DNA of 37,770 bases from a virus. Positions 4,622 to 37,770 of this stretch are shown here, piece after piece (the first letter of the stretch is position 1; every line of letters starts with the position of its first letter). The notes beneath the pieces are model-generated. The model searched no databases. It was not told the origin of the DNA and was given only the letters and a program-made list of their open reading frames with translations. The stretch lies in UHGV virus genome UHGV-1359486. One strand, 5' to 3'. The translations under genes and the position numbers were made by a program.

Positions 4622-4689
4622 TGCTTTCTCCAAGCGTGAGTAGTCGCATCAGACTATGATGTGATTTTTTAATTTAATAGGAGTGTGAT

Positions 4690-4788: not shown

Positions 4789-4805
4789 CCATCCGTGGCT
4801 CATGT

Positions 4806-8305: not shown

Positions 8306-8314
8306 AACTCCCCC

Positions 8315-9007: not shown

Positions 9008-9009
9008 AA

Positions 9010-12429: not shown

Positions 12430-12441
12430 TGGTATCTCCAA

Positions 12442-12464
12442 TAAAAAAGGGAGCCGAAGCTCCC
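12442..12464 (-). terminator. Rho-independent terminator/attenuator just downstream of coat gene
   Basis: Minus-strand GGGAGC-UUCG-GCUCCC hairpin followed by UUUUUU. Confidence 0.55.
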
Positions 12465-12481
12465 AATGTGACAACGAGGAT

Positions 12482-14688: not shown

Positions 14689-14702
14689 GATATTTAACTC
14701 TC

Positions 14703-18755: not shown

Positions 18756-18808
18756 ATATCCCCCTTAATCAATTATCCAGCCCACTCGGAAATGAGCTGT
18801 GTAATTGG

Positions 18809-19033
18809 CTATGCGAACAGGTCTAATGCTTCCTGTGCCTCTCTTGCTGCCTTTTGTGCTCTGGCAACAAACTGTGATTCGGTCTGGCATTTGTGGTAAG
18901 CATCTTTGAAGAGCTCAAACTTGAGCGCGTCGTCTTTAACAAACTCGATAGCGGCCTGAGCTGCGGCAGTGTCATTGCTCACCAGTCGCAGTAAGTCCAG
19001 ACGCATCTGATGTTGTGCTGTGATTTCTGTCAT
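18809..19033 (-). CDS. Hypothetical protein (74 aa; start uncertain, track ORF extends to 19117)
   Basis: ORF between lysis cassette and terminase; weak RBS. Confidence 0.35.
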   Translation of the reverse strand: MTEITAQHQMRLDLLRLVSNDTAAAQAAIEFVKDDALKFELFKDAYHKCQTESQFVARAQKAAREAQEALDLFA

Positions 19034-19231
19034 TTTTGCACCTGTAGTTTTTGAGATAAGTGTTCCGTCTCTCCGGTTGTCACGACCATGCCGCCAATGG
19101 TTGCCGTTCCCACACATGCGGATTACACATCCGTGGCTTCGTTGTTTTCGACTATCAGTGTGCGCTCGTCACGTGAGGATATGAGTCATTGCTAACACGC
19201 TATACCGCGACAACGCTGCGCAAAGTGCTGG

Positions 19232-19438
19232 TTATTTGGAGTCGTTTACGTAATGGGCTACCGTTTTACCGGCGCTGTTGATAATTTCGGCTTTATCGCC
19301 AGACTGCAATGTGAGGTCATCGCCGCAGTTATTATGGTCGGTGTAATTCAGCTTATACGCCCACGGTGACCACTGAATACCATAACCGGACTCAATGACT
19401 TCGTTACCTGATGCGGTGATTACTTTGATTGTGAACAT
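19232..19438 (-). CDS. Hypothetical protein (68 aa)
   Basis: ATG preceded by GGAG at 6 nt. Confidence 0.5.
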   Translation of the reverse strand: MFTIKVITASGNEVIESGYGIQWSPWAYKLNYTDHNNCGDDLTLQSGDKAEIINSAGKTVAHYVNDSK

Positions 19439-19582
19439 GATGATGCTCCGTTATTGAATTTTGTTCGCAACCATCATCACGCATCACTACGTTACTTTGG
19501 TCACTTCCGTCTGTTCCGGCATGTCAAGATAGTGATCACCTCCTATCAGAGAAGATCTATCTAACCTTGTCGGGGTTATTCG

Positions 19583-19609
19583 TAAAAAAGCCCCGCTAGT
19601 TAGCGAGGC
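19583..19609 (-). terminator. Candidate rho-independent terminator overlapping the 3' end of Rz
   Basis: Minus-strand 9-bp stem (one G-U pair) followed by UUUUUU. Confidence 0.35.
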
Positions 19610-20048
19610 ACTGAGTCTTTATGTAGTCATGGAGCCCACGAATTTGGGCATCCATTGTTTCAAGCTGCTTGCGGAGATGAAAATAATCCGGTTCAGCGTC
19701 TCTCGCCAGGGTGGCGGGTCTGCCATCATCCATGCTGGAGGTGGTATCGGTTCCGCTTTTGGGGCATTCAGCGCGGACGTACACCCGCTTGTTGCCAGAC
19801 TTAACAGCATCACGCAGGCTATCAATTTCAGTTTTGGCATTGGTTAACTCCTGCGTGTACATAGTGTCGAGTTCGTGAAGTGACTGAATGCGGGATTTGT
19901 AGCCTTTGTTGATGGCGACCTGCTCTGCAAACTGAGAGGAAAGCAGCTGATAGTTATCTTTCAAGCCACCATACAGATGCAGGAGAAGCAGCAGACTGAC
20001 AGCCAGTATTCCGCAAATGCCTAGCCATATCTTTGTTGCGGTGCTCAT
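19596..20048 (-). CDS. i-spanin (Rz-like)
   Basis: 150 aa, N-terminal TM helix then coiled-coil region; directly after endolysin. Confidence 0.8.
   Translation of the reverse strand: MSTATKIWLGICGILAVSLLLLLHLYGGLKDNYQLLSSQFAEQVAINKGYKSRIQSLHELDTMYTQELTNAKTEIDSLRDAVKSGNKRVYVRAECPKSGTDTTSSMDDGRPATLARDAEPDYFHLRKQLETMDAQIRGLHDYIKTQCLAN
19619..19840 (-). CDS. o-spanin (Rz1-like lipoprotein) embedded in the Rz gene in another frame
   Basis: Signal peptide with lipobox-like ATSGC, Pro-rich mature part; fully nested within Rz. Confidence 0.65.
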   Translation of the reverse strand: MPKLKLIACVMLLSLATSGCTSALNAPKAEPIPPPAWMMADPPPWRETLNRIIFISASSLKQWMPKFVGSMTT

Positions 20049-20049
20049 A

Positions 20050-20382
20050 TCACTTAACGCCGTTGTGTTCTAACGAGTAGTGATTGCCGTCATTGAACCT
20101 ACCGCCCCACGTACCCCCGATGGACTCCCAATATTCACCGAGTGGTTTGTGGTCACTTGATGCCGTCAGATATTTGCCATCTTTGAACAGGTTGAAATCA
20201 ACCGCCAGCCGCTGGGTATGCAGGCTGTTTTTAATTCCAGCGCCGGATTTGGCATTTAGTGCAGCCTGCTCCGGTGTTCGGTACGCCTCTGAGAACGTCA
20301 GATCATAGCCGTTGTCGTACGCGAAGATAATTAAGTCCGCAATCATGCGGGTAAACTTGCGTTGCTTTTCACCTAATGTCAT
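20050..20382 (-). CDS. Endolysin, peptidase M15-type (L-alanyl-D-glutamate/D-Ala-D-Ala peptidase family)
   Basis: 110 aa; SLHTQRLAVD (H-x6-D) and DGNHYSLEH zinc-ligand pattern; ATGA overlap with holin. Confidence 0.7.
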   Translation of the reverse strand: MTLGEKQRKFTRMIADLIIFAYDNGYDLTFSEAYRTPEQAALNAKSGAGIKNSLHTQRLAVDFNLFKDGKYLTASSDHKPLGEYWESIGGTWGGRFNDGNHYSLEHNGVK

Positions 20383-20687
20383 TTTTTACCGCCTGAGAAT
20401 TTTGACCAAAAGAAGTCCAGTGCAAAAGAACCCATAGCGCCACACATACCGGCAGCAAATACCGTGTAATAAAACGAAGCGTTGAGTTCCACAGAAAGAA
20501 GCCCACCCATCAGGCCGGAGAACCCGGAAACCATCATCTGCATGATTGCCCCCAGCCAGCTCCAGCGGTAGCCGTTGCGTTTGTTGTCAATAATGTACCG
20601 GGCTAAGCCACCGTAAAGGGATATGGCAAATATGACCCCCCATGCTGTACCGGTGACTTTCAGGTCTTTGTCATCCATCTTTGCCAT
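20379..20687 (-). CDS. Holin, three TM helices, dual-start motif MAKM
   Basis: 102 aa; three hydrophobic segments, charged C-terminus; strong RBS. Confidence 0.75.
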   Translation of the reverse strand: MAKMDDKDLKVTGTAWGVIFAISLYGGLARYIIDNKRNGYRWSWLGAIMQMMVSGFSGLMGGLLSVELNASFYYTVFAAGMCGAMGSFALDFFWSKFSGGKK

Positions 20688-27994: not shown

Positions 27995-28321
27995 CTAATG
28001 CGCCTCTGCTGCTCCAACAGCCGGGGCGTTTTCTTTTGTTCTCATCAGAGAGAGTTCGCCGATCTGCTTCCACAGAAACCGGTACTCTTCCTCGCTGATT
28101 TTCTTCTCGCCTGGCAAAACAAAATCTGTGATACCGGCTGCGGCCAATGTCTCGCATATCTCCGGTAACTTTTCTGTTCTGCGTAAGACTGTTGAATCGT
28201 GTACACCGAGCAGTTTTGCAACCACTGTCTGTGTGGTACTTCTCAGTGCCTGATGAGCAGTTGCCATCAGATGATTTGACACAAACCGGTTAAACGATTT
28301 GCGTGGATTTGCATTTTCCAT
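27995..28321 (-). CDS. CII-like transcriptional activator
   Basis: 108 aa with HTH (TQTVVAKLLGVHDSTVLRR); between cro and O. Confidence 0.65.
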   Translation of the reverse strand: MENANPRKSFNRFVSNHLMATAHQALRSTTQTVVAKLLGVHDSTVLRRTEKLPEICETLAAAGITDFVLPGEKKISEEEYRFLWKQIGELSLMRTKENAPAVGAAEAH

Positions 28322-28391
28322 TTGTTAAATTCCTTTTGACGTAGTTAATCCGTTGCTCACTTCCTGTGAGGTGCTTGCTGTGTTGAAAAAT

Positions 28392-28434
28392 GTTCCAGCA
28401 CATATCCGGAACGGGCTAAATTGTGTAAAGAGCG
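28392..28434 (-). promoter_or_regulatory. nutR-like site: boxA CGCTCTTTACACAA + hairpin with loop AUAUGUG and U-run
   Basis: Read on minus strand between cro and cII. Confidence 0.45.
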
Positions 28435-28443
28435 GTGCTGATT

Positions 28444-28644
28444 TTATTTTTTGCCTTGTTGTAGCCACGCCGCGCTACATTTCAGGGCTTTTGATAATTC
28501 AAAAATGAATCGTGGGCGCTTAGTTGAACCAGACTCAATCGCCTGGATAGATTGCTGCTTAATGCCAACAAGCTCAGCGAGTTGAGACTGAGTCAGATTC
28601 AACTCACAACGCCGAGCTTTTACACGTTGAGAGATGGTTTCCAT
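28444..28644 (-). CDS. cro: Cro-like repressor
   Basis: 66 aa XRE-type HTH (LTQSQLAELVGIKQQSIQAIESG); divergent from cI across operator region. Confidence 0.8.
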   Translation of the reverse strand: METISQRVKARRCELNLTQSQLAELVGIKQQSIQAIESGSTKRPRFIFELSKALKCSAAWLQQGKK

Positions 28645-28661
28645 ACTTTCTTATCTCCTTT

Positions 28662-28724
28662 ATACAGTTTTATCTGTATTTAATAACAGATACACCTGTT
28701 TGTCAAATACAGTTTTTATTGTGA
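28662..28724. promoter_or_regulatory. OR operator region: three 18-bp sites (28662-28679 ATACAGTTTTATCTGTAT; 28684-28701; 28707-28724) with PR (-35 TTGACA, -10 TTAAAT on minus strand)
   Basis: Inverted-repeat half-sites ACAG/CTGT read directly between cro and cI. Confidence 0.7.
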
Positions 28725-28752
28725 AAATCCCTTTATTACAGGGGGTGGAAAA

Positions 28753-29385
28753 ATGAGTCTTGCCAGCAGAGTAAAAAGTCGTCGCCTTGCGCTCGAAATG
28801 ACACAAACAGAGGCAGCAGAAAAAGCAGGAATTAAACAGCAGTCGTGGGCGTCTATTGAAGATGGTAAGACTGTTAAACCTCGTAATATAATTGCGATTG
28901 GCGCTGCATTGCAGTGCGACCCAGGGTGGCTGATGACGGGAGATAATATTCAGCCAATCAGCGAGGTAAATACACGGAAGATACCTCTAATTAGTTACGT
29001 ACAGGCGGGAAACTTGGCTGAAAGCATACCGATCAGTGATTGTGACGGGTCTTTTGAGTACGTTCTTACCGATCAGGACTTATCTCATAATGCGTTCGCC
29101 CTTCGTATTGAAGGTGATTCAATGGAGCCTGATTTTAAAACCGGCGATGTAGTGATTATCGATCCTGAGATAGAGCCGCATCCAGGTGAGTTTGTTGTCG
29201 CGTCTAATGGCGAGCAAGAGGCAACATTCAAGAAATACAGGCCTACCCATGTCATGATTAATGGTGACCAGCACTACGAGTTAGTCCCACTCAATGACGA
29301 CTATCCAGTGCTCGATAGCGAGAAAATCAATCTCCGGATAATCGGTACAATGGTAGAGCACCGAATTTACCGAAGAAAAAGGTAA
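28753..29385 (+). CDS. cI: CI-type repressor (HTH + S24 LexA-like autopeptidase domain)
   Basis: 210 aa; N-terminal HTH; GDSMEP (Ser) and FKKY (Lys) catalytic dyad context. Confidence 0.9.
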   Translation: MSLASRVKSRRLALEMTQTEAAEKAGIKQQSWASIEDGKTVKPRNIIAIGAALQCDPGWLMTGDNIQPISEVNTRKIPLISYVQAGNLAESIPISDCDGSFEYVLTDQDLSHNAFALRIEGDSMEPDFKTGDVVIIDPEIEPHPGEFVVASNGEQEATFKKYRPTHVMINGDQHYELVPLNDDYPVLDSEKINLRIIGTMVEHRIYRRKR

Positions 29386-29398
29386 CACGCATTTAAAC

Positions 29399-29422
29399 CA
29401 ACCCGCTTCGGCGGGTTTTTTT
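29399..29422 (+). terminator. Rho-independent terminator after cI
   Basis: CCCGC-TTCG-GCGGG followed by TTTTTTT. Confidence 0.65.
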
Positions 29423-29471
29423 GTATCTAAATTCCAATGAAAATCACCCGATTACAGTTTCATCGATAAAA

Positions 29472-29515
29472 ATACAGTTTTACCTGTTGACCAAATACAG
29501 TTTTACCTGTATCTT
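29472..29515 (+). promoter_or_regulatory. OL/PL: two operator sites (29472-29489, 29495-29512) overlapping -35 TTGACC and -10 TATCTT
   Basis: Same 18-bp operator family as OR (ATACAGTTTTACCTGT). Confidence 0.65.
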
Positions 29516-29555
29516 TTAATCATCAACGGCACGGAGCCAAAGATAAAACGGACTT

Positions 29556-29600
29556 AGCTCTTTTACAATCGGGAACCTGATCTGAATAAGAGTCAGATCA
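29556..29600 (+). promoter_or_regulatory. nutL-like site: boxA-like AGCTCTTTTACAA + 8-bp stem hairpin with loop AUAAGAG
   Basis: Read directly downstream of PL; loop resembles nutR hairpin loop. Confidence 0.45.
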
Positions 29601-29842
29601 CCACTGAGTGGTTTTTGGGATTGGTGAATGCCGGGTGCTGACCGGCAAGTGTAAGACCTAATGGGTGGTAGATATCGCTGGCTGTAGTCGGTTGAGTAAG
29701 CGCGTTGCAAGCCAGCACCGACCCAATAAACGACATGCGAAACCTTCGCCCCGGTGAAACTCCGGTGTCAACTAGCATGGCGCATAGACAAGCAGGAAAT
29801 CAGCACCTGCCACCAATCACCAAAAATTACTCAGGAGGCAAT

Positions 29843-30142
29843 ATGGCAACAATTACTGTTATTCCAAAGAAAGACAACGCGAAGAGCCGCCGGCTAGCAA
29901 AGCAAATGGCGTTCTGGGACAGAAAGCGTGAGGAGTATGCAGCGATGCCTAAAAGCCGCTCAGTGGAGGAGATTTTTGATTCAGTATTTGCGCCAGCGAA
30001 AGAAGAACGTCCGGCGCTGACACTGAAACCAACACAGTATTACCCGTCCGGTGATAACTGCTGCCTGCCTAAAGTGGCAATTTTCAGCGGGGTTAAGGTC
30101 AAGCAGCCGAAAGGTGATTTCGGGATTACAGTGCGAGCATAA
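29843..30142 (+). CDS. N-like antiterminator (99 aa)
   Basis: AGGAGG RBS; N-terminal Arg-rich motif KSRRLAKQMAFWDRKRE resembling lambda N ARM; first gene after PL/nutL. Confidence 0.6.
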   Translation: MATITVIPKKDNAKSRRLAKQMAFWDRKREEYAAMPKSRSVEEIFDSVFAPAKEERPALTLKPTQYYPSGDNCCLPKVAIFSGVKVKQPKGDFGITVRA

Positions 30143-30536
30143 CCTGATGGGCTGTGTGAGCGCAGATATTTTTATGTACCAACACCAGAACAGGCGCTAA
30201 ATCGGTCGCGTCAGGAATTAATAAAGTACCGTCAGCACCGGAGGATTTATGTAGAAGAAAAAGCGGGCAGACCGCAGCTGCATAGCGACAATGGTTAGGT
30301 AGTGACTACCCCCTGAGTAGCCTGATGGCTAGCCTGTGTAGCGACGGGTCAAGGTTTTTTATATCAAAAATAGCTCTGGTAAAGCAGCGGGAGCGCCAAG
30401 CCCGCACCAGTCATTAGCTGCCGATGGGCATGCAACCTCAAGGGCATGAGCGAGGCCACTGCGAGAGTGTGGCAACTAATCACAGCCCATTCGGTGAGTG
30501 GGCTATGGTGAGTTGATTAATAGATAGGAGATAGAG

Positions 30537-30725
30537 ATGGATATTACGATTTTGTGCTCATCTGCTGATTGCAGTTCAGGGGTTGGAATAATGGAGGTAA
30601 AGGTCATCGATGTGGCTGATATTTCAATTCCAGAAGAATACCAAAATGAAGTGCTCAGAACCGCTATTAGTGAAGAAAATATAATTAAATACCTTAAAAG
30701 TCAGGGTTATTTAGTTACTTGTTAA
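30537..30725 (+). CDS. Hypothetical protein (62 aa)
   Basis: AGGAG RBS. Confidence 0.5.
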   Translation: MDITILCSSADCSSGVGIMEVKVIDVADISIPEEYQNEVLRTAISEENIIKYLKSQGYLVTC

Positions 30726-30738
30726 TAACGGAGGGAGT

Positions 30739-30948
30739 ATGACAGATAAAACAGGTGGAGCCGCGTTTCCGGCAAGTGGTCACCCAGGGAAACAGCACTT
30801 ATCGCAGGAAGGAATGACGCTGCGGGATTATTTCGCAGCAAAGGCTATGGCATCAGTCCCGTTAGCTTTAGATAGTAATGAGCAACAATTAATAGCCAAT
30901 GCTGCTTATGCACAGGCAGACGCAATGCTCAGAGCAATGGAGAAATAA
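30739..30948 (+). CDS. Hypothetical protein (69 aa)
   Basis: GGAGGGA RBS. Confidence 0.5.
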   Translation: MTDKTGGAAFPASGHPGKQHLSQEGMTLRDYFAAKAMASVPLALDSNEQQLIANAAYAQADAMLRAMEK

Positions 30949-30950
30949 CA

Positions 30951-31337
30951 ATGTCAGGACACCCACACGCTGACCTTATGGCTAAGGCAGCAGAGATAGC
31001 GAAGACGGATCAGTATTGGCAGCGGCACTTTGAGGAAAAATTTCACAGTACGGATAAGTGGAATCCAATGTCAGATGTGTTCTTTCAAACACACAGAGAA
31101 TATCGGCTAAAGCCCAGCTTCATAGACATTAACGGGCATCAGGTTCCGGAGCCGGTGCGGGAGCCTCTGGAAGACGACCAAGAGTACTGGATAGCGGACA
31201 TTCGATATGCGGTATCTGTTTTTAATTGGGAGAATAATGACGCTGACAATCGCTGGCTTGAACGCGGCATCATTCATCTAACCAAAGAAGCCGCAGAAGC
31301 CCACTCAGCCGCCCTGCTCTCTTTCACACAGAAGTAA
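30951..31337 (+). CDS. Hypothetical protein (128 aa)
   Basis: GGAGAA RBS. Confidence 0.5.
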   Translation: MSGHPHADLMAKAAEIAKTDQYWQRHFEEKFHSTDKWNPMSDVFFQTHREYRLKPSFIDINGHQVPEPVREPLEDDQEYWIADIRYAVSVFNWENNDADNRWLERGIIHLTKEAAEAHSAALLSFTQK

Positions 31338-31377
31338 CCCACCCTATCCAACCTCGGGATATCAGCAGGTAAACAAC

Positions 31378-31509
31378 ATGAACATGCTTAAACAGCAGGA
31401 GCATCGCTACAAGCTTTGTAGTGAGAGTTTCGCACGTAAAAAATCAGGCTTAAAGCCGGTGTTAATTACATTTCTGGCGCTGACAGTTGTTCTGTTGTTC
31501 GCCAGATGA
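31378..31509 (+). CDS. Small C-terminally anchored membrane peptide (43 aa)
   Basis: Hand-translated MNMLKQQEHRYKLCSESFARKKSGLKPVLITFLALTVVLLFAR; below track cut-off. Confidence 0.35.
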   Translation: MNMLKQQEHRYKLCSESFARKKSGLKPVLITFLALTVVLLFAR

Positions 31510-31518
31510 GGGGGATTT

Positions 31519-31764
31519 ATGCAGATAACTTGCGACCACTTCAGCGTTTCCGGAAGAACCGGTGAGCCGGTAATCACTACCCACGGACGGGTATTTATCA
31601 ACGGACTTGATTCTGAGGCTATAAGAAATAGCGATGCCGATATACAGGAGTTAGTCGGCAACTGGCTGCGGAGTATGGATGAGCAATCAGCGGTTGAGAC
31701 GCTACGGAAAGCAGGGTTCGACATGGACGTTATCGCACAACTTGCAAGGAGGAGCGCAGCATGA
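31519..31764 (+). CDS. Hypothetical protein (81 aa)
   Basis: GAGGGGG RBS; ATGA-coupled to next gene. Confidence 0.5.
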   Translation: MQITCDHFSVSGRTGEPVITTHGRVFINGLDSEAIRNSDADIQELVGNWLRSMDEQSAVETLRKAGFDMDVIAQLARRSAA

Positions 31765-31991
31765 ACGCATACGCAGCACAGGATGCTCAGGAAGAGCGAC
31801 GGCTGGAGCATGCAGCATGGCAGGATGCCGTGGACATGGAAGTTAGCGAACTGGCAACGGATGCTTTTAATAAACTCCCTCAGCGCCTTCTGGATGAAGT
31901 AAGCGAGGACCTGCAAGAGGCGATATGGAAATCACTTTTTGACGTTATTGGCAATATCAGGAGTTCGTATGCAGCCAGGTATCTACGATGA
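31761..31991 (+). CDS. Acidic helical protein (76 aa) immediately upstream of the recombination nuclease
   Basis: AGGAGG RBS; acidic composition. Confidence 0.5.
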   Translation: MNAYAAQDAQEERRLEHAAWQDAVDMEVSELATDAFNKLPQRLLDEVSEDLQEAIWKSLFDVIGNIRSSYAARYLR

Positions 31992-32787
31992 CATCAGCAA
32001 TGATGACTATCACAACGGCCCCGGGATAAGTAAATCGCAGCTGGACCTTATCGAACAATCACCGGCTGACTTTATCTGGCAACGGAATGCCCCGGTGGAT
32101 GAGGAAAAAATAAAGGCTCTGGATTTCGGGACCGCTGTTCACTGCCTTTTGCTTGAGCCTGATGAGTTCAATAACCGGTACAGGATAGGGCCGGAAGTAA
32201 ACAGACGCACATCCGCAGGGAAGCAGGAAGAAAAGGAATTCTTCGAAATGTGCGAAAAAGAAGGAATCACGCCAATCACCCATGACGACAACAGGAAGTT
32301 GATGATCATGCGGGATAGTGCCATGGCCCACCCTATCGCCAAATGGTGCCTTGAAGCTGAAGGAAAAGCCGAGAGCAGCATTTACTGGAATGACAAGGAA
32401 ACGGACATTCTTTGCCGGTGCAGGCCGGACAAACTGATAGGACAACACGGATGGATTGTCGATGTGAAAAGCACCGCGGACATGTCCCGCTTCGAACGCG
32501 CTTTTTACGATATGCGCTATCACGTTCAGGACGCGTTTTACTCAGACGGATATAAGGACCTGTCCGGAGAGTTACCGGTGTTCGTATTTCTCGCGGTCAG
32601 CACAACAATCGACTGCGGAAGATATCCGGTCCGTGTATTCATTATGGATGATGTGGCAAAGGATGCCGGACGGTCCGCATACAAACAAAATCTCAGAACA
32701 TACACCGAGTGCATTAAAACGGATGAATGGCCCGGTCTGAGAACACTATCACTGCCACGCTACGCAAAGGAACTGAGAAATGAGTAA
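31969..32787 (+). CDS. RecE-type exonuclease (nuclease domain only; PD-(D/E)XK)
   Basis: GIYDDISNDDYHNGPGISKSQL, SSIYWND, CRCRPDKL, GWIVDVKSTAD, YHVQDAFYSDGY match the C-terminal nuclease domain of E. coli RecE as recalled. Confidence 0.8.
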   Translation: MQPGIYDDISNDDYHNGPGISKSQLDLIEQSPADFIWQRNAPVDEEKIKALDFGTAVHCLLLEPDEFNNRYRIGPEVNRRTSAGKQEEKEFFEMCEKEGITPITHDDNRKLMIMRDSAMAHPIAKWCLEAEGKAESSIYWNDKETDILCRCRPDKLIGQHGWIVDVKSTADMSRFERAFYDMRYHVQDAFYSDGYKDLSGELPVFVFLAVSTTIDCGRYPVRVFIMDDVAKDAGRSAYKQNLRTYTECIKTDEWPGLRTLSLPRYAKELRNE

Positions 32788-33589
32788 CCCACCAATCGCA
32801 CAGGCGGACCTGCAAAAAGCACAAGGGACCGCGGTTAAAGAAAAAACAAAAGACCAGCAGCTAATCCAGTTCATAAACCAGCCAGGCATGAAAGCTCAAC
32901 TAGCAGCCGCCCTGCCGAGGCATATAACACCGGACCGCATGATCAGGATTGTCACCACCGAGATACGGAAAACTCCATCACTGGCAACCTGTGACATGCA
33001 AAGCTTTATCGGCGCTGTTGTTCAGTGCTCGCAACTTGGCCTTGAGCCAGGTAACGCATTGGGCCACGCCTACCTCCTTCCGTTCGGCAATGGTAAAGCG
33101 GCATCAGGGCAATCAAATATTCAGTTAATTATCGGATATCGCGGCATGATCGACCTCGCCCGCCGATCCGGTCAAATTATCAGTATATCGGCCCGCACTG
33201 TGCGCGAAGGTGACAGTTTTCATTTTGAATATGGCTTAAACGAGGACCTTACACACGTACCCGGCGAAAATGACTCGGGCCCAATCACCCACGTTTATGC
33301 AGTGGCCCGCCTGAAAGAAGGTGGTGTTCAGTTTGAGGTTATGTCTTTCTCTCAGATTGAGAAGGTCCGCGATTCAAGCAAGGCCGGTAAAAATGGTCCA
33401 TGGGTATCTCACTGGGAAGAAATGGCGAAAAAGACCGTCATCCGCCGCCTGTTCAAATATCTGCCGGTATCTATCGAGATGCAGAGGGCCGTCATTCTGG
33501 ATGAAAAAGCAGAGGCCAACGTGGACCAGGAGCATGCATCTATTTTTGAAGGTGAGTACGAAACTGTATCGCCGGAATCCGCGGGGTAA
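32780..33589 (+). CDS. recT: RecT-family single-strand annealing protein
   Basis: 269 aa; LLPFG, IGYRGMIDLARRSG motifs; coupled downstream of the nuclease. Confidence 0.85.
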   Translation: MSNPPIAQADLQKAQGTAVKEKTKDQQLIQFINQPGMKAQLAAALPRHITPDRMIRIVTTEIRKTPSLATCDMQSFIGAVVQCSQLGLEPGNALGHAYLLPFGNGKAASGQSNIQLIIGYRGMIDLARRSGQIISISARTVREGDSFHFEYGLNEDLTHVPGENDSGPITHVYAVARLKEGGVQFEVMSFSQIEKVRDSSKAGKNGPWVSHWEEMAKKTVIRRLFKYLPVSIEMQRAVILDEKAEANVDQEHASIFEGEYETVSPESAG

Positions 33590-33591
33590 TT

Positions 33592-33852
33592 ATGGGCGAC
33601 ATGGGCGATATATTCCGCGCAATGCGTGAAGATGCCAAAGAACGTAAGCAGCAGCGATTAAAAGAAAATACAGGGAAGTTATCAGGAATTGATATTCCGT
33701 TTACAAAGGATGGAAGCGGAACAATTCATTTTTCAACACCAGCCGGAAAAGTTCTGTTTTACCCCACCACAAATAAAATTCAGCACAAGCAAAAGGTCAC
33801 ACGCGGCAATCTGGAAAAGGCTGTCTCGCTGGCTAAAAGTCTTGGTGCATAA
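33592..33852 (+). CDS. Hypothetical protein (86 aa)
   Basis: ORF with ATG. Confidence 0.5.
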   Translation: MGDMGDIFRAMREDAKERKQQRLKENTGKLSGIDIPFTKDGSGTIHFSTPAGKVLFYPTTNKIQHKQKVTRGNLEKAVSLAKSLGA

Positions 33853-33859
33853 CCCCACC

Positions 33860-33878
33860 GTTTCAGGATGAAGCGTAA
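33860..33878. repeat. 19-bp direct repeat GTTTCAGGATGAAGCGTAA, copy 1
   Basis: Identical copy at 34129-34147. Confidence 0.9.
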
Positions 33879-34140
33879 GCCAGAGGAAACAATCATGTGC
33901 ATACAGGAAATGAATGTACGGGTTTACTTTGCCCCTACCAGAAACCGCCGGTATTTCAGCAAGGATGCTGCGATAAAGGCAGAGGTAAAGGCGCGAATAT
34001 TCATGAAATACCCGTTTGAGAGGCCCGAATCCGATACGGGATATCCGGGATATTACATATCAGAAGACAGGCCTGAATTTTATCGCAGAGCGGTGAGATA
34101 TCTGACCTATCTGATTAAAAAGCAAATGGTTTCAGGATGA
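33868..34140 (+). CDS. Hypothetical protein (90 aa; alternative start ATG 33896) flanked by 19-bp direct repeats
   Basis: ORF begins and ends inside the two repeat copies. Confidence 0.45.
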   Translation: MKRKPEETIMCIQEMNVRVYFAPTRNRRYFSKDAAIKAEVKARIFMKYPFERPESDTGYPGYYISEDRPEFYRRAVRYLTYLIKKQMVSG

Positions 34141-34147
34141 AGCGTAA
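34129..34147. repeat. 19-bp direct repeat GTTTCAGGATGAAGCGTAA, copy 2
   Basis: Identical to 33860-33878. Confidence 0.9.
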
Positions 34148-34171
34148 TGCAGGGATGCTGAGGAAATAACA

Positions 34172-34963
34172 ATGACTGCTTACTATAACGAAATCGACCC
34201 GTTCGCTGCTCAGTGGTTACGGAATCTCATTGCTGCCGGCCATATAGCGCCGGGTGTAGTGGACGAAAGGAGTATTGAAGATGTCACACCAGATGATTTA
34301 CGCGGATTCACACAATGCCACTTCTTCGCCGGTATCGGGGTGTGGTCACTCGCACTGCGCCGTGCAGGATGGCCGGATGATAAACAAGTCTGGTCAGGAA
34401 GTTGTCCGTGCCAGCCTTTCAGCGCGGCAGGCAAAGGAAATGGGTTTGCTGACGAGCGGCACCTTTGGCCTGCATTCTTCCACCTCATCAGCGAGTGCAA
34501 ACCTGGCGTTATCTTTGGTGAACAGGTTGCAAGCAAAGACGGCCTCGGGTGGCTCGACCTTGTTCAAACTGACTTGGAAGCAACGAACTACGCCGTCGCC
34601 GCGGTCGATTTATGCGCTGCGGGCTTCGGTGCGCCGCATATCAGACAGCGATTGTTCTGGGTGGGCAACGCCAACAACCAGGGAATGGAAGGAATGCGGG
34701 GATGTGAGTCAGTCATTCTTCCGGAAGGACGGGAAGATGCGAAACGACACGCTATACCGCCAGCTATGGCTGCACATGTTTGGGATGGATGGCAGGCCGT
34801 CACGGGAGCAGATAAAAAATCTCGAATGCTGCCACCTGACTTTGGCGAGAGAACTGATGATGCTGCCGGTAGAGTTGGAAAACTCCGCGCCTACGGAAAT
34901 GCCATCGTCGCGCCGGTCGCGGAAGAATTTATAAGGGCTTATATGCTGATAACAGAGGAATGA
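34172..34963 (+). CDS. DNA (cytosine-5)-methyltransferase-like protein, orphan, short target-recognition region
   Basis: 263 aa; motif I FFAGIGV, motif IV SCPCQPFSAAGK, ENV-like FGEQV, QRL, motif X YGNAIV; no adjacent nuclease gene. Confidence 0.6.
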   Translation: MTAYYNEIDPFAAQWLRNLIAAGHIAPGVVDERSIEDVTPDDLRGFTQCHFFAGIGVWSLALRRAGWPDDKQVWSGSCPCQPFSAAGKGNGFADERHLWPAFFHLISECKPGVIFGEQVASKDGLGWLDLVQTDLEATNYAVAAVDLCAAGFGAPHIRQRLFWVGNANNQGMEGMRGCESVILPEGREDAKRHAIPPAMAAHVWDGWQAVTGADKKSRMLPPDFGERTDDAAGRVGKLRAYGNAIVAPVAEEFIRAYMLITEE

Positions 34964-34968
34964 ATATG
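34953..34968. repeat. 16-bp direct repeat CAGAGGAATGAATATG, copy 1 (second copy 35240-35255)
   Basis: Read directly; each copy supplies RBS and MNM start of the following gene. Confidence 0.9.
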
Positions 34969-35232
34969 TCGCGGCCAATCGACTTAATAGCAGATATCAC
35001 GGATGAGTATATCGCTAGGCATTTTGAAGGGACGAACTACGGGCACACCAACTATCGGGACATCGTTGGCAAAGGATGTCTGAATGCTATGGCCGGATAT
35101 CACAACGGATATACCACACAGTGCATATTGATAAAAATGGGGCTGACCACAGAGAAATTACGGCTGACAAAGCGCGGTCGTGAATTTCTGTTCTGGCATT
35201 TTAACTATCAACCGGTTAATGGGCGGAAATAA
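34960..35232 (+). CDS. Hypothetical protein (90 aa)
   Basis: ATGA-coupled to methyltransferase. Confidence 0.5.
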   Translation: MNMSRPIDLIADITDEYIARHFEGTNYGHTNYRDIVGKGCLNAMAGYHNGYTTQCILIKMGLTTEKLRLTKRGREFLFWHFNYQPVNGRK

Positions 35233-35239
35233 TTCATCG

Positions 35240-35255
35240 CAGAGGAATGAATATG
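35240..35255. repeat. 16-bp direct repeat CAGAGGAATGAATATG, copy 2
   Basis: Identical to 34953-34968. Confidence 0.9.
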
Positions 35256-35537
35256 GCAATAGTTCAGTATTACGTTGCGTGTAAAAAAGATGAAGACCCG
35301 GCATCCGTCACTGAGATTTTTCGCTGTGAATTATCAGACGACCATAATTTCAGTGCTGATGATGACGACTTCGAATTTTGTATAGAAACATGCGCAGAAG
35401 ATTTTCACGACAGATGCGACGGGTGGGAGCGTCATTGGCCTTTATTATTCATGCTGTGGATTGATGGGAAATATATCGGCATGTTTGAAGTTGAACGCGA
35501 ATATGAGCCAACATTTTCAGCCAACAAAGTTAATTAA
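35247..35537 (+). CDS. Acidic hypothetical protein (96 aa)
   Basis: D/E-rich (SDDHNFSADDDDFEF). Confidence 0.5.
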   Translation: MNMAIVQYYVACKKDEDPASVTEIFRCELSDDHNFSADDDDFEFCIETCAEDFHDRCDGWERHWPLLFMLWIDGKYIGMFEVEREYEPTFSANKVN

Positions 35538-35555
35538 GCAGATTCAGGAGGGGTG

Positions 35556-35849
35556 ATGGATAGTAATAATATAGAATTTTTACAGCCAGATGATTTAAAT
35601 AATCTGAAACGGTTCAATGAAAATTGCGAAGATAGTCAAGATTACGACGTACCAAAAGAAAAAATGCACCGCATGGCTAAATTGGGAGTTGTGCGTCGTC
35701 ACAGTAGAAACTATTACAGCATAACATCATTCGGAATGTATTTACTTAATCAAGGTGACGAACTATATAAATTGCCACTTAAAACGCAGTCTGATTACGA
35801 TGCAGAATTCCGATTTAATTTAGCCAATAAAATTCGAGGCTCATCATGA
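35556..35849 (+). CDS. Hypothetical protein (97 aa from ATG; track starts at GTG 35553)
   Basis: AGGAGG RBS; AT-rich. Confidence 0.5.
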   Translation: MDSNNIEFLQPDDLNNLKRFNENCEDSQDYDVPKEKMHRMAKLGVVRRHSRNYYSITSFGMYLLNQGDELYKLPLKTQSDYDAEFRFNLANKIRGSS

Positions 35850-36139
35850 TGGGTATATCACGACAGCAGTTTGAGGAATACATTAAATTGCATACCGACT
35901 CAGCAGGGCTGGAGCTGAAATTAAAAAAAGCAAATAACGGATTAAATTACGCTAACCGGGATGTCGATTTAATGTGGATTGGCTGGCAGGCATCGCGTGA
36001 AATCTTAACTGTTGAATTGCCTTTATCTCTTCACGTAAGAGCCTATGACTATTACACGGACGGCTATAACAGTGGCGTGGATTACTGTGAAGTTATATTG
36101 GAATCTGCGGGAATAAAAGTAATAAGAACCGACCAATAA
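35846..36139 (+). CDS. Hypothetical protein (97 aa)
   Basis: ATGA coupling. Confidence 0.5.
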   Translation: MMGISRQQFEEYIKLHTDSAGLELKLKKANNGLNYANRDVDLMWIGWQASREILTVELPLSLHVRAYDYYTDGYNSGVDYCEVILESAGIKVIRTDQ

Positions 36140-36306
36140 AATCATCGGGGAATAACAATGACAATCGGATTTGTATTACTACTGGTAATGCACGGTGCTG
36201 CTGTGCCTGTTACCGATGATATTTATACGCTCGAGGAATGTGAGAGCCGCGCAGTGCAGGTAATGGCTGTGCGGAATGTTGAATTAGTGTGTGCGGAGGT
36301 TTTCAG

Positions 36307-36675
36307 ATGAGACAAATTAAAATAAGCTCTGGCGCGTGGCAAAAAGATTTAGAAATGGTTGTCACTGTTATCGATGAAGATAAATTTAAAACTCAGTGTG
36401 AGCAAGTTAATAAATTTTATTGTGACGCAGAGTATAGAGCTAAGAAACACGGAAGCCATGAAAAAGCGGGGTTCGCCATGTTCTGCGCTGAGTGTTTTCA
36501 ACAAATGGCATTCAATAACTTTAAAGACGAAGAATGGCTGACTGAGCAATTCGACTGGTCTAAAGATAAAGGAATTGAAGGGTATCCTTCGTTAGATGAT
36601 ATGGGCATTCGAATCGATGAAATTGAGCCATGGTTTATTGATTACGACGAAATGGAAATTACAGGATGGTGTTAA
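36307..36675 (+). CDS. Hypothetical protein (122 aa from ATG; track 36289)
   Basis: GGAGG RBS 8 nt upstream. Confidence 0.5.
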   Translation: MRQIKISSGAWQKDLEMVVTVIDEDKFKTQCEQVNKFYCDAEYRAKKHGSHEKAGFAMFCAECFQQMAFNNFKDEEWLTEQFDWSKDKGIEGYPSLDDMGIRIDEIEPWFIDYDEMEITGWC

Positions 36676-37056
36676 ATGAACAAATATAGTGACAAATCAG
36701 ACTTTGAGATTAATAAGGCTGTGGCTGTTAATATTAATGGCACTGACTCTGTTTTAGAAAAGTTCGGTAGAATATATATCAGTGATGGCGATAGAGGTGC
36801 GATGGTGAGCTTCTCCCCATGCAACAACCCAGCGGACGCATGGCCTATTATTTTAAAAAACAGAATCAGCATTATCATTCCAGGGAATGAATATAGTGAT
36901 GGTTACAGCACTCCATTTGCTGCAAGTGGATTTGATGATGTTTCTCATATAACCAGAAATACATATTATACAGATGAGGAATCATTCAATCAAAACCCAC
37001 TACGCGCAGCAATGGAAGTATTCCTGATGATGAAAGAGGCGGAGAATGGTAAATAG
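36676..37056 (+). CDS. Hypothetical protein (126 aa)
   Basis: ORF with ATG. Confidence 0.5.
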   Translation: MNKYSDKSDFEINKAVAVNINGTDSVLEKFGRIYISDGDRGAMVSFSPCNNPADAWPIILKNRISIIIPGNEYSDGYSTPFAASGFDDVSHITRNTYYTDEESFNQNPLRAAMEVFLMMKEAENGK

Positions 37057-37228
37057 TTACCACTGCGAAGCATGCAACAAGCCACTTAATGAGGATGAGC
37101 TGCTTTATTATGGATTCACCTGTGAAAAATGTGAACGTCATTTCATTACTGAGCATGAAGGAAATAAATTCAAAACCGCAATATCGCTCATCAGGCTCTA
37201 TTTCAGAAAGGTAATTTACTCAGCGTAG
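37046..37228 (+). CDS. Small zinc-ribbon protein (60 aa)
   Basis: CEAC...CEKC motif pairs. Confidence 0.45.
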   Translation: MVNSYHCEACNKPLNEDELLYYGFTCEKCERHFITEHEGNKFKTAISLIRLYFRKVIYSA

Positions 37229-37235
37229 GTGACCA

Positions 37236-37445
37236 ATGACACCACAGGAAGCAGAGAACGGACGCAGACGAATAGCAAGGGAATGCCTGAAGGAATTAAT
37301 GCAGTACACATCAGACGAACAACACACCGCAATACTCGACAAATACACACCGAAATTCAAACCACTTAATCACCTGCGCTTTCCGGCAAAGAGAGTGCTC
37401 GGGTATTACGTGCGTACGTTACAGAAGGAGATGAAGGATGGATAA
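37236..37445 (+). CDS. Hypothetical protein (69 aa)
   Basis: ORF ends overlapping xis start. Confidence 0.45.
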   Translation: MTPQEAENGRRRIARECLKELMQYTSDEQHTAILDKYTPKFKPLNHLRFPAKRVLGYYVRTLQKEMKDG

Positions 37446-37770
37446 AGTCACGATGACACGCGACGAGGCTGCTAAATTTATCGGCGTAAGCCCTGATACG
37501 CTTACGTCATGGTGCCGCGCCGGACGCATTTCGTATCAGCGGAAAGACCCGTTCAAAAAGAAGTCACCCTATCTGTTTACAGAGTCAGCCTGCCTTGCGG
37601 CACTGAGCAATCCGATCAACACTATCGCCGAGAGCGAGATTGATGTGAAAGGAGATCACAAATGTCAATCTTCAAACGTGGTAACTCTTGGTATTGCGAC
37701 TTCGCGACACCTGGCGGCAAGAGAATTAAAAAGTCGCTTGGTACGTCCGACCGGAAGCAAGCCCAGGAGC
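37438..37770 (+). CDS. xis: Excisionase, 5' 111 codons (frame closes at window positions 13-15)
   Basis: GAAGGAG RBS; HTH-like [41 protein letters not shown] resembles P22 Xis; overlaps int start. Confidence 0.7.
37662..37770 (+). CDS. int: Tyrosine integrase, 5' part (continues at 1..1055)
   Basis: [48 protein letters not shown] continues in frame into window position 1. Confidence 0.9.

What the first reader, a model, noticed from the sequence alone, without database searches (positions are those of the whole stretch)
34172..34963. Orphan C5-methyltransferase-like gene with atypical motifs
Motif order is C5-MTase-like (PCQ catalytic Cys, QRL, GN), but motif I is FAGIGV rather than FxGxGG and ENV is replaced by EQV, and the region between motifs VIII and X is short. 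No nuclease partner is adjacent, so it is probably an anti-restriction methylase of unknown target; its activity is uncertain.
Basis: partly seen in the sequence, partly recalled or inferred. Interest (0 to 1): 0.5.

Follow-up and report, generated by a model that had tools for sequence, protein, structure and literature searches.

The report
Two-in-one phage DNA methylase gene
The phage cytosine-methylase gene is real, but what appears to be its missing DNA-recognition half is encoded by a second 217-codon gene nested inside it in another reading frame, conserved in every relative examined and skipped by standard annotation.

Summary
It lies in a Morganella prophage with no nuclease partner. 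It is not a self-contained methylase with a short target-recognition domain (TRD).

A second ORF, "beta", runs from 34281 to 34934 in the +1 frame. It has its own AAGGAG-N8-ATG start and lies entirely inside the gene.
- In all 84 related loci, the +1 frame is open for about 62-98% of the gene in full-length genes (54% in one outlier). The +2 frame has about 15 stops per gene.
- Synonymous sites of the methylase frame are nearly frozen where beta is conserved.
- Between motifs VIII and X, substitutions follow beta's codon phase, not the methylase's.

[quoted passage not shown] Its motif I also sits after a motif II/III-like segment. Beta carries a conserved helix-hairpin, a variable W-x-T-P module and a motif-IX-like end.

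The best reading is a two-subunit C5 methylase split at the domain boundary. This matches the layout published for M.EcoHK31I, here as an orphan phage enzyme. Expression, complex formation, activity and target are untested. This allele's beta has Leu at a near-invariant Trp.

The parts
34172..34963 (+). alpha gene (frame 0), 263 aa: large catalytic domain of a C5 cytosine methyltransferase (motifs II/III-like, I, IV, VI, VIII, linker, X)
34160..34164 (+). Shine-Dalgarno-like GAGGA, 7 nt upstream of the alpha ATG
   Evidence: Read directly from the sequence.
34178..34264 (+). alpha aa 3-31 (AYYNEIDPFAAQWLRNL...VVD): motif II/III-like strand-helix-strand placed before motif I (segmental permutation)
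   Evidence: hhalign of a 34-sequence N-terminal profile against M.HhaI 36-60, E=0.003. Model secondary structure E3-6, H10-22, E28-31. Y5, E7 and D31 are invariant.
34319..34342 (+). alpha motif I (HFFAGIGV, aa 50-57)
   Evidence: Aligned to the HhaI motif I LFAGLGG.
34397..34423 (+). alpha motif IV (GSCPCQPFS, aa 76-84) with catalytic Cys80
   Evidence: invariant P79 C80 Q81.
34514..34528 (+). alpha motif VI (FGEQV, aa 115-119)
   Evidence: invariant G116 E117 Q118 V119.
34634..34663 (+). alpha motif VIII (PHIRQRLFWV, aa 155-164)
   Evidence: R158 and R160 align to HhaI R163 and R165.
   Evidence: pLDDT 38-47. For codons 166-215, substitutions are highest at alpha codon position 1 (0.42-0.56) and lowest at position 3 (0.12-0.24). 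Nonsynonymous-alpha/synonymous-beta changes outnumber the reverse class 10:2, 23:11 and 21:5.
34886..34921 (+). alpha motif X (RAYGNAIVAPVA, aa 239-250)
   Evidence: Invariant Y241 G242 N243. Helices H234-243 and H247-262 with pLDDT 86-95.
34267..34272 (+). Shine-Dalgarno AAGGAG for beta, 8 nt upstream of its ATG, built from alpha codons GAA-AGG-AGT (E32 R33 S34)
   Evidence: 37 of 76 relatives use AGG-AGY at these codons. 68 of 77 genes have an SD-like 4-6-mer before a +1-frame ATG at nt 85-130 of alpha.
34281..34934 (+). beta gene (+1 frame), 217 aa plus stop, wholly nested in alpha
   Evidence: Open +1 frame. phrog_1008 E=3e-18. Open in all 84 related loci. 0 of 300 synonymous shuffles reach its length. 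2452 database clusters are similar and none of the 120 listed has a Pfam domain. A gene caller begins a 91%-identical relative at the same MSHQM start (P0271).
34281..34412 (+). beta N-terminal tail (aa 1-44): open but weakly constrained
   Evidence: Normalised synonymous entropy of the alpha frame is still 0.77-0.89 over these codons. Synonymous-alpha/nonsynonymous-beta changes dominate. Low pLDDT.
34413..34643 (+). beta conserved helix plus beta-hairpin (aa 45-121: ...ANLALSLVNRLQAKTASGGSTLFKLTWKQRTTPSPRSIYALRAS...), overprinted on alpha motifs IV-VIII
   Evidence: Synonymous entropy of alpha drops to 0.26-0.52, with single codons fixed in 58-76 of 77 genes. pLDDT 81-93. The TWK motif is present in 76 of 77 betas.
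34644..34823 (+). beta variable module (aa 122-181: SDSDCSGWATPTTREWKECGDVSQSFFRKDGKMRNDTLYRQLW...), the presumed target-recognition region; one W-x-T-P unit here, 0-5 in relatives
   Evidence: Codon-phase flip. Purifying selection on beta. Cassette-like length variation between otherwise 92-94% identical Morganella genes. Module counts.
34824..34886 (+). beta motif-IX-like end (aa 182-202: ECCHLTLARELMMLPVELENS; family consensus GQLNPAHSRWLMGLPxEWDxC), overprinted on the run-up to alpha motif X
   Evidence: The only hhalign match of the beta profile to M.HhaI is at residues 272-292, RKLHPRECARVMGYPDSYKVH, and it is weak (E=0.088). An LMGxPxxW-like pattern is present in 74 of 77 betas. Alpha synonymous entropy is 0.22-0.33 here. 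The window has Leu199 (TTG, 34875-34877) where at least 90% of 35 relatives have Trp.

Best explanation
The locus encodes a two-subunit DNA (cytosine-5) methyltransferase from one stretch of DNA read in two frames.

Frame 0 (34172-34963) gives alpha. Alpha is the large AdoMet-binding and catalytic domain, with motifs I, IV, VI, VIII and X. Its motif I unit is transposed behind a motif II/III-like unit. A disordered linker sits where single-chain enzymes have the small domain.

Frame +1 (34281-34934) gives beta, which starts from its own SD and ATG inside alpha. Beta has four parts: a dispensable-looking tail, a conserved helix-hairpin that probably anchors it on alpha, a variable W-x-T-P module that probably reads the target sequence, and a motif-IX-like end.

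Alpha and beta would assemble into the usual two-lobed enzyme and methylate an unknown sequence. The likely role is an orphan, early-expressed function that shields phage or prophage DNA from restriction.

Shown here: both frames are under purifying selection, alpha is a C5-methyltransferase catalytic domain without a folded TRD, and beta has a conserved start signal.

Inferred: translation of beta, the alpha-beta complex, beta's role in target recognition, activity and biological role.
For: 1. Open frame. In 84 of 84 loci the +1 frame is open for about 62-98% of alpha in full-length genes (54% in the 547-aa outlier L025). The longest open +2 run is 27-104 codons. The observed run equals or exceeds all or nearly all of 300 synonymous shuffles per gene in most genes. 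Total +1 stops are 312 against 523 expected; +2 stops are 1236 against 1133.
2. Synonymous constraint. Across 77 genes of 49-66% GC, normalised synonymous-codon entropy is 0.77-0.90 in alpha codons 1-80, 0.26-0.52 in codons 101-150 and 0.22-0.33 in codons 221-240. Examples of fixed codons: P111 CCT 76/77, F115 TTT 69/69, E136 GAA 75/75 (raw entropies).
3. Codon-phase flip. In alpha codons 166-215, differences peak at alpha position 1, which is beta position 3. Against the closest relative L004, 10 changes are nonsynonymous in alpha but synonymous in beta, and 2 are the reverse. The two classes are about equally frequent among possible mutations.
4. Start signal. A +1 ATG lies at nt 85-130 in nearly all 77 genes, and 68 of 77 have an SD-like element. 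In the window it is AAGGAG-N8-ATG.
5. Alpha lacks a small domain. The linker has pLDDT 38-47, while the beta core has 74-93 and the paired alpha+beta model has pTM 0.81.
7. Motif IX. Beta's end matches HhaI motif IX weakly, but at the correct place, and the pattern is present in 74 of 77 betas.
8. Precedent. In M.EcoHK31I, alpha holds motifs I-VIII and X, beta holds motif IX and is encoded entirely in another frame inside alpha, both are needed for activity, and the first ~41 residues of beta are dispensable in vitro (PMC2836561; PMC3404938). That matches the ~44 weakly constrained residues here.
9. Earlier annotation. The annotators of phage K1G listed both nested CDS.
Against: - No expression, proteomic or methylation data exist for this or any relative I could find.
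- Beta has no significant sequence match to any solved structure, Pfam or NCBIfam family. The motif IX match is weak: E=0.088, probability below 1%.
- The alpha-beta model used a covalent linker, and no inter-chain error estimate was available.
- The canonical-order chimera modelled the variable module poorly, pLDDT 27-46.
- Homology to M.EcoHK31I itself could not be tested, because the sequence and the 1995 paper are not held.
- This allele's beta deviates at two near-invariant motif-IX positions, Gly194 to Met and Trp199 to Leu. It may be weakened.
Confidence: 0.72

Rival explanations
1. Single-polypeptide orphan methylase. Only frame 0 is a gene, the short VIII-X region is a minimal TRD, and the +1 ORF is an untranslated by-product of composition.
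For: Frame 0 alone passes the Pfam threshold and is what PGAP annotates. Short orphan phage C5 methylases with almost no TRD exist (my own knowledge, not tested here).
Against: A by-product would not stay open in 84 of 84 loci at alpha identity as low as about 47%. It would not freeze alpha's synonymous sites across GC 49-66%. It would not impose its own codon phase on the VIII-X region. That region is predicted disordered.
Confidence: 0.04
2. Programmed +1 ribosomal frameshifting. Ribosomes start at the alpha ATG and slip into the +1 frame, giving an alpha-N-terminus/beta fusion alongside full-length alpha.
For: Database proteins P0155 and P0117 read alpha's catalytic core and beta's variable-module/motif-IX part in one frame. 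An internal SD-like element can stimulate frameshifting (general knowledge; review PMC5009743).
Against: The DNA behind P0155 carries one indel that shifts alpha and beta at the same point, so that fusion is an artefact or a mutant. The +1 frame is kept open from nt ~55-120, far upstream of where a useful fusion could form. An ATG at initiation-type spacing from the SD is nearly universal. Synonymous sites around motif VIII are free, 0.78-0.95, so there is no conserved slippery site there.
Confidence: 0.08
3. Beta is a real overprinted protein, but it is not part of the methylase. It could be a regulator, an anti-defence factor or a DNA-binding accessory. Alpha would then work alone or with a host factor.
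For: Beta has no significant similarity to known TRDs or to any curated family. Overprinted viral genes often have accessory functions (PMC6188560).
Against: Alpha has no folded recognition domain. Beta lengths track alpha lengths, r=0.82, as expected of a cassette inside one enzyme. The motif-IX-like end sits at the right relative place. Structural correspondence to single-chain enzymes improves when beta is inserted. The EcoHK31I precedent also applies.
Confidence: 0.13
4. The family works as alpha/beta, but this particular allele is inactive or weakened because of the Trp199-to-Leu change in beta's motif-IX-like segment.
For: Trp is present at this position in at least 90% of 35 betas and in 14 of 15 aligned short-type betas. 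A 91%-identical relative has Trp. The change is a single base, TTG against TGG, and is synonymous in alpha.
Against: Both frames are intact. Recent substitutions against L004 still show purifying selection on beta. The first Trp of the motif is already variable in this TRD subfamily.
Confidence: 0.2

Closest known systems
M.EcoHK31I (YGGCCR), the two-polypeptide C5 methyltransferase of E. coli HK31 (Lee, Kam & Shaw 1995, as described in PMC2836561 and PMC3404938)
   Same: The beta ORF lies entirely inside the alpha gene in another reading frame. [quoted passage not shown] The first ~41 residues of beta are dispensable in vitro, which matches the ~44 weakly constrained residues here. Internal Met codons can start beta.
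   Different: EcoHK31I belongs to a restriction-modification system, whereas this gene is an orphan in a prophage early region. The literature places the EcoHK31I TRD in alpha. Here the alpha 'TRD' is a disordered passenger and selection acts on beta's frame. Sequence homology to EcoHK31I was not testable here. The displacement of motif I is not reported for EcoHK31I, as far as I could read.
M.AquI (CYCGRG), a two-subunit C5 methyltransferase encoded by two separate genes
   Same: It is a C5 methyltransferase assembled from two polypeptides, with the split near or within the variable region (PMC3404938).
   Different: AquI alpha holds motifs I-VIII and beta holds IX-X, from non-overlapping genes. 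Here motif X stays with alpha and the two genes overlap completely.
Single-chain bacterial C5 methyltransferases (M.HhaI, M.HaeIII, M.MpeI; Pfam PF00145)
   Different: In this family the order is II/III-like, then I, then IV. There is no TRD or motif IX in the same chain. The TIGR00675 score is below its cutoff.
Rz/Rz1 of phage lambda (nested +1-frame gene pair; my own knowledge)
   Same: A same-strand gene is fully embedded in another in the +1 frame, and the two products work together.
   Different: Rz1 is about 60 codons and is a lysis lipoprotein. Here the embedded gene is 217 codons in the window (206-423 in full-length relatives) and overlaps a conserved enzyme core.
Circularly permuted C5 methyltransferases (M.BssHII, plant DRM; engineered M.SssI/M.MpeI permutants, PMC5944983)
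   Same: The conserved motifs appear in a non-canonical order without loss of the fold.
   Different: Those are circular permutations (IX-X before I, or VI-X before I-V). Here only the motif I strand-helix unit appears to have moved behind the motif II/III-like unit.

Membership tests
DNA (cytosine-5) methyltransferase catalytic domain (PF00145) | Significant profile match above the curated threshold | tested here: met
DNA (cytosine-5) methyltransferase catalytic domain (PF00145) | Motif IV Pro-Cys nucleophile, motif VI Glu, motif VIII Arg-x-Arg, motif X Gly-Asn | tested here: met
   P79-C80-Q81, E117, R158/R160 and G242-N243 are all invariant in relatives.
DNA (cytosine-5) methyltransferase catalytic domain (PF00145) | Canonical motif order I-II-III-IV | tested here: not met
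   Motif I is followed directly by motif IV. HhaI 33-70 has no counterpart between them. The motif II/III-like segment precedes motif I (E=0.003).
DNA (cytosine-5) methyltransferase catalytic domain (PF00145) | TRD and motif IX between motifs VIII and X in the same polypeptide | tested here: not met
   Alpha aa 174-203 have pLDDT below 50. The region evolves in beta's codon phase.
NCBIfam TIGR00675 (dcm superfamily) | Score at or above the curated cutoff | tested here: not met
   50.7 bits against 100.65.
M.EcoHK31I-type overlapping two-polypeptide methyltransferase | Second ORF wholly inside the methylase gene in an alternative frame | tested here: met
   34281-34934 lies inside 34172-34963 in the +1 frame. 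This is conserved in 84 of 84 loci.
M.EcoHK31I-type overlapping two-polypeptide methyltransferase | The second frame is a real coding sequence under selection | tested here: met
M.EcoHK31I-type overlapping two-polypeptide methyltransferase | Large subunit has motifs I-VIII and X; small subunit has motif IX | tested here: inconclusive
   The alpha part is met. Beta's motif IX rests on a weak hhalign hit at the right HhaI residues (E=0.088) and on a conserved LMGxPxxW pattern in 74 of 77 betas.
M.EcoHK31I-type overlapping two-polypeptide methyltransferase | Both polypeptides required for methylation | not testable with these tools
   This needs expression of alpha, beta and both together.
M.EcoHK31I-type overlapping two-polypeptide methyltransferase | Sequence homology to M.EcoHK31I alpha and beta | not tested
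The 1995 paper is not held, and PMC2836561 has no supplement held.
M.EcoHK31I-type overlapping two-polypeptide methyltransferase | Cognate restriction endonuclease gene adjacent | tested here: not met
   The neighbours are recombination genes and small unknown ORFs. E. coli relatives lie in prophage nin or early regions.
Orphan phage (anti-restriction) methyltransferase | Phage or prophage context without a nuclease partner | tested here: met
Orphan phage (anti-restriction) methyltransferase | Methylation protects phage DNA from restriction | not testable with these tools
   No methylome or restriction data were found for any relative.

The most novel reading that the evidence does not exclude
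A whole, very large family of phage and prophage 'orphan Dcm-like' methylases would be obligate alpha/beta enzymes encoded by fully nested dual-coding genes. Evidence of scale: 84 of 84 loci examined, over 8000 alpha clusters and 2452 beta-like clusters in the protein database.

The specificity-determining small domain would be read in the +1 frame and exchanged as a cassette. The catalytic subunit's own reading of that cassette would be a disordered passenger linker.

That would make this one of the longest and most widespread same-strand nested gene pairs in prokaryotic viruses. It is invisible to standard annotation. It could also mean that the published assignment of the TRD to the alpha chain of M.EcoHK31I needs revisiting.
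Probability: 0.55. Interest if true: 0.75.

Novelty: new variant of a known kind. Interest (0 to 1): 0.66.

Why it matters
**Annotation.** Pipelines name only alpha, or sometimes only a fragment of beta. A recurrent phage enzyme is therefore described as a complete single protein when half of it is missing from the catalogue.

**Experiments.** Codon-optimised or recoded alpha genes would silently delete beta. This could explain inactive 'orphan methylases', and it matters for methylome and phage-host restriction studies.

**Evolution.** This is a natural case of 200-400 codons of same-strand dual coding over a conserved enzyme core. The regions where each frame is 'master' or 'passenger' are clearly separated, which makes it a clean system for studying overprinting and how specificity cassettes can be swapped inside an overlapping gene.

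**Engineering.** Naturally split C5 methylases have been used as scaffolds for targeted methylation (PMC2836561). A large family with many beta cassettes would widen that toolbox.

Tried and rejected
- **Beta against curated libraries.** Pfam, NCBIfam and a PDB sequence profile all returned nothing.
- **Single-chain methylases with a beta-type TRD.** A query of the variable module plus motif IX from a typical beta returned only small ORFs without Pfam domains. The one whose DNA I read (L085) was a partial call of a nested beta; a second (L086) sits at a contig end, and I could not read its DNA. My recollection of single-chain 'WPTP' methylases could therefore not be substantiated here.
- **Apparent in-frame alpha-beta fusions (P0155, P0117).** I rejected P0155 as evidence of frameshifting, because one indel shifts both frames together in its DNA. 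For P0117 I compared protein sequences only; its DNA was not examined.
- **M.EcoHK31I sequence.** The 1995 paper is not held and no supplement is held, so homology is untested.
- **Literature searches.** Searches for a description of the nested gene in phage methylases found only the phrase 'Mte8-like protein' in annotation-derived text and no analysis.
- **N-terminal profile against all PDB sequences.** The segment was too short to reach significance. Only the pairwise comparison with HhaI was informative.
- **First shuffling script.** It timed out and was rerun successfully.
Full report
**Observation.** It runs from 34172 to 34963 on the + strand, is 263 codons long, and its ATG is preceded by GAGGA. 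It contains FFAGIGV (aa 51-57), PCQ (79-81), EQV (117-119), RQRL (158-161) and YGNAIV (241-246). Pfam PF00145 matches at E=1e-16, but only over aa 74-173. NCBIfam TIGR00675 stays below its cutoff. The phage family phrog_363 'DNA methyltransferase' matches end to end at E=4e-86. M.HhaI aligns over motifs IV-VIII.

The closest proteins, 90-96% identical, are 'DNA cytosine methyltransferase' of Morganella morganii. Related genes occur in Edwardsiella, Salmonella (epsilon15), Klebsiella, Vibrio and other phages and in E. coli prophages. The neighbours are an exonuclease VIII-like gene, RecT and small ORFs of unknown function. There is no nuclease partner. The observation therefore stands.

**First anomaly: motif order.** Against M.HhaI, the family aligns motif I (query 41-66 to HhaI 7-32) and then runs straight into motif IV. 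HhaI 33-70, which holds motifs II and III, has no counterpart between them. The 40 residues that precede motif I (AYYNEIDPFAAQWLRNL...VVD) align to HhaI 36-60 (VYSNEWDKYAQEVYEMNFGEKPEGD) at hhalign E=0.003.

In the model these residues form strand-helix-strand (E3-6, H10-22, E28-31). Then come strand E48-51, the FAGIG loop, helix H57-64 and the motif IV strand. The simplest reading is a segmental permutation in which the motif I unit sits behind the motif II/III-like unit. This is an inference from sequence and secondary-structure order. I could not inspect coordinates.

**Second anomaly: a nested ORF.** The ORF list shows a 219-codon ORF in the +1 frame (34275-34934) nested in the gene. Its translation matches phrog_1008, which is also labelled 'DNA methyltransferase', at E=3e-18. 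tblastn finds it open and similar in 148 phage records, 58 of them over at least 80% of its length at 33-57% identity. In phage K1G the depositors annotated both nested CDS, gp34 and gp35.

I fetched 80 related loci from IMG/VR and three phage records.
- In all 84 loci the +1 frame is open for about 62-98% of the methylase ORF in full-length genes. The window has 224 of 263 codons open; the 547-aa outlier L025 has 54%. The longest open run in the +2 frame is 27-104 codons.
- With 300 synonymous-codon shuffles per gene, the observed run equals or exceeds all or nearly all shuffles in most genes. For the window it is 0 of 300.
- Total +1 stops are 312 against 523 expected. The +2 frame shows 1236 against 1133.

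**Selection on the second frame.** Three independent measurements were made on ungapped or main-frame-anchored codon alignments.
1. *Entropy by codon position.* Third-position entropy of the methylase frame is 1.2-1.6 bits in codons 1-72. It falls to 0.65-0.97 in codons 109-156 and to 0.59-0.72 in codons 217-240. In codons 133-144 and 217-240 it is lower than first-position entropy.
2. *Synonymous entropy at conserved residues.* Normalised synonymous-codon entropy is 0.77-0.90 up to codon 80 and 0.26-0.52 in codons 101-150. Single codons are fixed in genomes spanning 49-66% GC: P111 CCT 76/77, F115 TTT 69/69, V119 GTT 76/77, L128 CTC 64/64, E136 GAA 75/75, D146 GAT 66/66.
3. *Codon phase between motifs VIII and X.* In codons 166-215 the phase of substitution flips. 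Differences are most frequent at methylase position 1, which is position 3 of the +1 frame (0.42-0.56). They are least frequent at methylase position 3 (0.12-0.24). Codons 1-80 show the ordinary pattern.

The closest relative gives the same answer. Against L004, 10 changes in that region are nonsynonymous for the methylase frame but synonymous for the +1 frame, and 2 are the reverse. The two classes are equally likely a priori (0.21 against 0.23). For L005 and L002 the counts are 23:11 and 21:5. The +1 frame is therefore a protein-coding gene under purifying selection, including in the window's own lineage. The methylase frame is a passenger between motifs VIII and X.

**Anatomy of the two products.** I call the frame-0 product alpha and the +1 product beta.

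Beta most likely starts at ATG 34281, which follows AAGGAG (34267-34272) at 8 nt.
- This SD is built from alpha codons GAA-AGG-AGT.
- 37 of 76 relatives use AGG-AGY at these codons.
- Nearly all of 77 genes have a +1 ATG at nt 85-130, and 68 have an SD-like element.
- A gene caller begins a 91%-identical relative at the same MSHQM (P0271).

Beta is 217 aa and has four parts:
- a weakly constrained tail (aa 1-44);
- a conserved helix plus hairpin (…LxSSLxSRLQAxTAxxGSTLYKLTWKxRxTPxGRxIxALRAS…), overprinted on alpha motifs IV-VIII;
- a variable module that begins with GW(P/A)TP;
- an end with consensus GQLNPAHSRWLMGLPxEWDxCAPTE, overprinted on the run-up to alpha's motif X.

Relatives differ mainly in the variable module, with 0-5 W-x-T-P-like units, and alpha length tracks beta length at r=0.82. 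Morganella alleles of 263, 294-304 and 326-337 aa share 92-94% identity over the first two thirds and near-identical ends. This is what cassette exchange would produce.

[quoted passage not shown] Alpha contains exactly the large-domain motifs.

In an AlphaFold model of alpha plus a Gly-Ser linker plus trimmed beta, built on a locus-paired alignment, the confidence values are:
- alpha 1-173: pLDDT 88-97;
- alpha 174-203: pLDDT 38-47;
- alpha 204-263: pLDDT 66-95;
- beta core: pLDDT 74-93;
- whole model: pTM 0.81.

The beta profile's only match to M.HhaI is residues 272-292 (RKLHPRECARVMGYPDSYKVH). This is motif IX, but the match is weak at E=0.088. Together these results point to beta being the small, target-recognising domain. 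They do not prove it. Beta has no significant match in Pfam, NCBIfam or PDB sequences.

**Comparison with what is known.** M.EcoHK31I has the same layout. [quoted passage not shown] Alpha holds motifs I-VIII and X, beta holds motif IX, both chains must associate for activity, internal Met codons of beta can initiate, and the first ~41 residues of beta are dispensable in vitro (PMC2836561). The last point parallels the ~44 weakly constrained residues here.

The differences are as follows.
- EcoHK31I is part of a restriction-modification system. This gene and its E. coli relatives are orphans in prophage early or nin regions.
- The literature places the EcoHK31I TRD in alpha. Here the corresponding alpha segment is a disordered passenger.
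- The motif I displacement is not mentioned for EcoHK31I in what I could read.

I could not obtain the EcoHK31I sequence, so membership in one family is untested. M.AquI is split differently, I-VIII against IX-X, on separate genes.

I found no paper in the held library that describes the nested gene in phage methylases. The eiAU and BASEL papers treat such genes as ordinary single methylases.

**Rivals.**
- *By-product ORF.* Excluded by the codon-phase data.
- *Programmed +1 frameshifting.* This is unlikely. The one 'fusion' protein whose DNA I checked carries a single indel that shifts both frames together. The frame is kept open far upstream of any useful junction. An ATG with initiation-type SD spacing is nearly universal. 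No synonymous-site conservation marks a slippery site near motif VIII.
- *Beta functional but unrelated to methylation.* This remains possible, at about 0.13.
- *Window allele weakened.* The window's beta has Met for the near-invariant Gly194 and Leu (TTG, 34875-34877) for the near-invariant Trp199. A 91%-identical relative keeps Trp, and the change is silent in alpha. This allele may be weakened.

**Verdict.** The atypical features are family-wide, and the 'short TRD' is not the enzyme's TRD. The locus is best described as a nested, dual-coding alpha/beta methyltransferase of the kind known from M.EcoHK31I. It belongs to a very large phage and prophage family in which annotation records only half of the enzyme. 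The dual coding is shown. Translation of beta, the complex, the activity, the target and the biological role are inferred.

Noticed in passing
L085 (Comamonas koreensis GCA_021026195.1, JAJNCT010000005.1) 1445-2600: The deposited annotation does not call the intact alpha gene at all. It calls a 174-aa fragment of the nested beta as 'hypothetical protein'. Many of the 80-177 aa 'hypothetical proteins' found with a beta query may be such partial calls, but only this one was checked at the DNA level.
   Followed up: partly
L084 (Logan SRR25428670_4253) 1501-2700; proteins P0155 and P0117: Database proteins that look like single-chain alpha-core plus beta-TRD fusions appear to arise from one indel that shifts alpha and beta together. 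They are artefacts or pseudogenes, not a third architecture. This was shown at the DNA level for P0155. For P0117 it was inferred from protein sequence only.
   Followed up: partly
window 34875-34877 (beta codon 199) and 34860-34862 (beta codon 194): The window's beta has Leu (TTG) where at least 90% of relatives have Trp, and Met where they have Gly, both in the motif-IX-like segment. The Trp-to-Leu difference is one base and is synonymous in alpha.
   Followed up: partly
window 34667-34830, compared with P0023/P0026/P0027/P0036 (Morganella): Morganella prophages carry alleles of 263, 294-304 and 326-337 aa that are 92-94% identical over the first two thirds and near-identical at the end, but have unrelated middles. 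This looks like exchange of the beta variable cassette by recombination.
   Followed up: partly
window 34960-34963: The next ORF (34960-35232, phrog_18088, unknown function) starts with an ATG that overlaps alpha's TGA stop (ATGA). This suggests translational coupling. The beta stop lies 29 nt upstream of alpha's stop (34932-34934 versus 34961-34963).
   Followed up: no
window 31939-33589: An exonuclease VIII/RecE-like gene (phrog_412, TTG start) and RecT (phrog_148) overlap by 8 nt and lie just upstream on the same strand. The methylase therefore sits in the early recombination operon of the prophage.
   Followed up: partly
L087 (E. coli K56-43-un, NZ_CP053079.1) 3501-4484: In E. coli lambdoid prophages a 327-aa relative sits between ninE and ninF in the nin region, and its end overlaps ninF by 47 nt. 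PGAP annotates alpha only.
   Followed up: no
window 34210-34536 (-), 34588-34803 (-), 34709-34978 (-): Three antisense ORFs of 71-108 codons also lie within the gene. I did not test whether their openness exceeds what the dual-coding constraint on the + strand would give.
   Followed up: no
PHROGs phrog_1008 versus phrog_363: PHROGs holds the alpha and beta products as two separate families, both labelled 'DNA methyltransferase', with nothing to show that they are encoded by the same nucleotides.
   Followed up: partly
window 1-37770: The window resembles most of a ~38-kb Morganella prophage. Long minus-strand ORFs, probably structural genes, lie at 2690-20687. The best phage match is Morganella phage IME1369_01, at 90% identity over only 7% of the 28000-37770 segment.
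   Followed up: no
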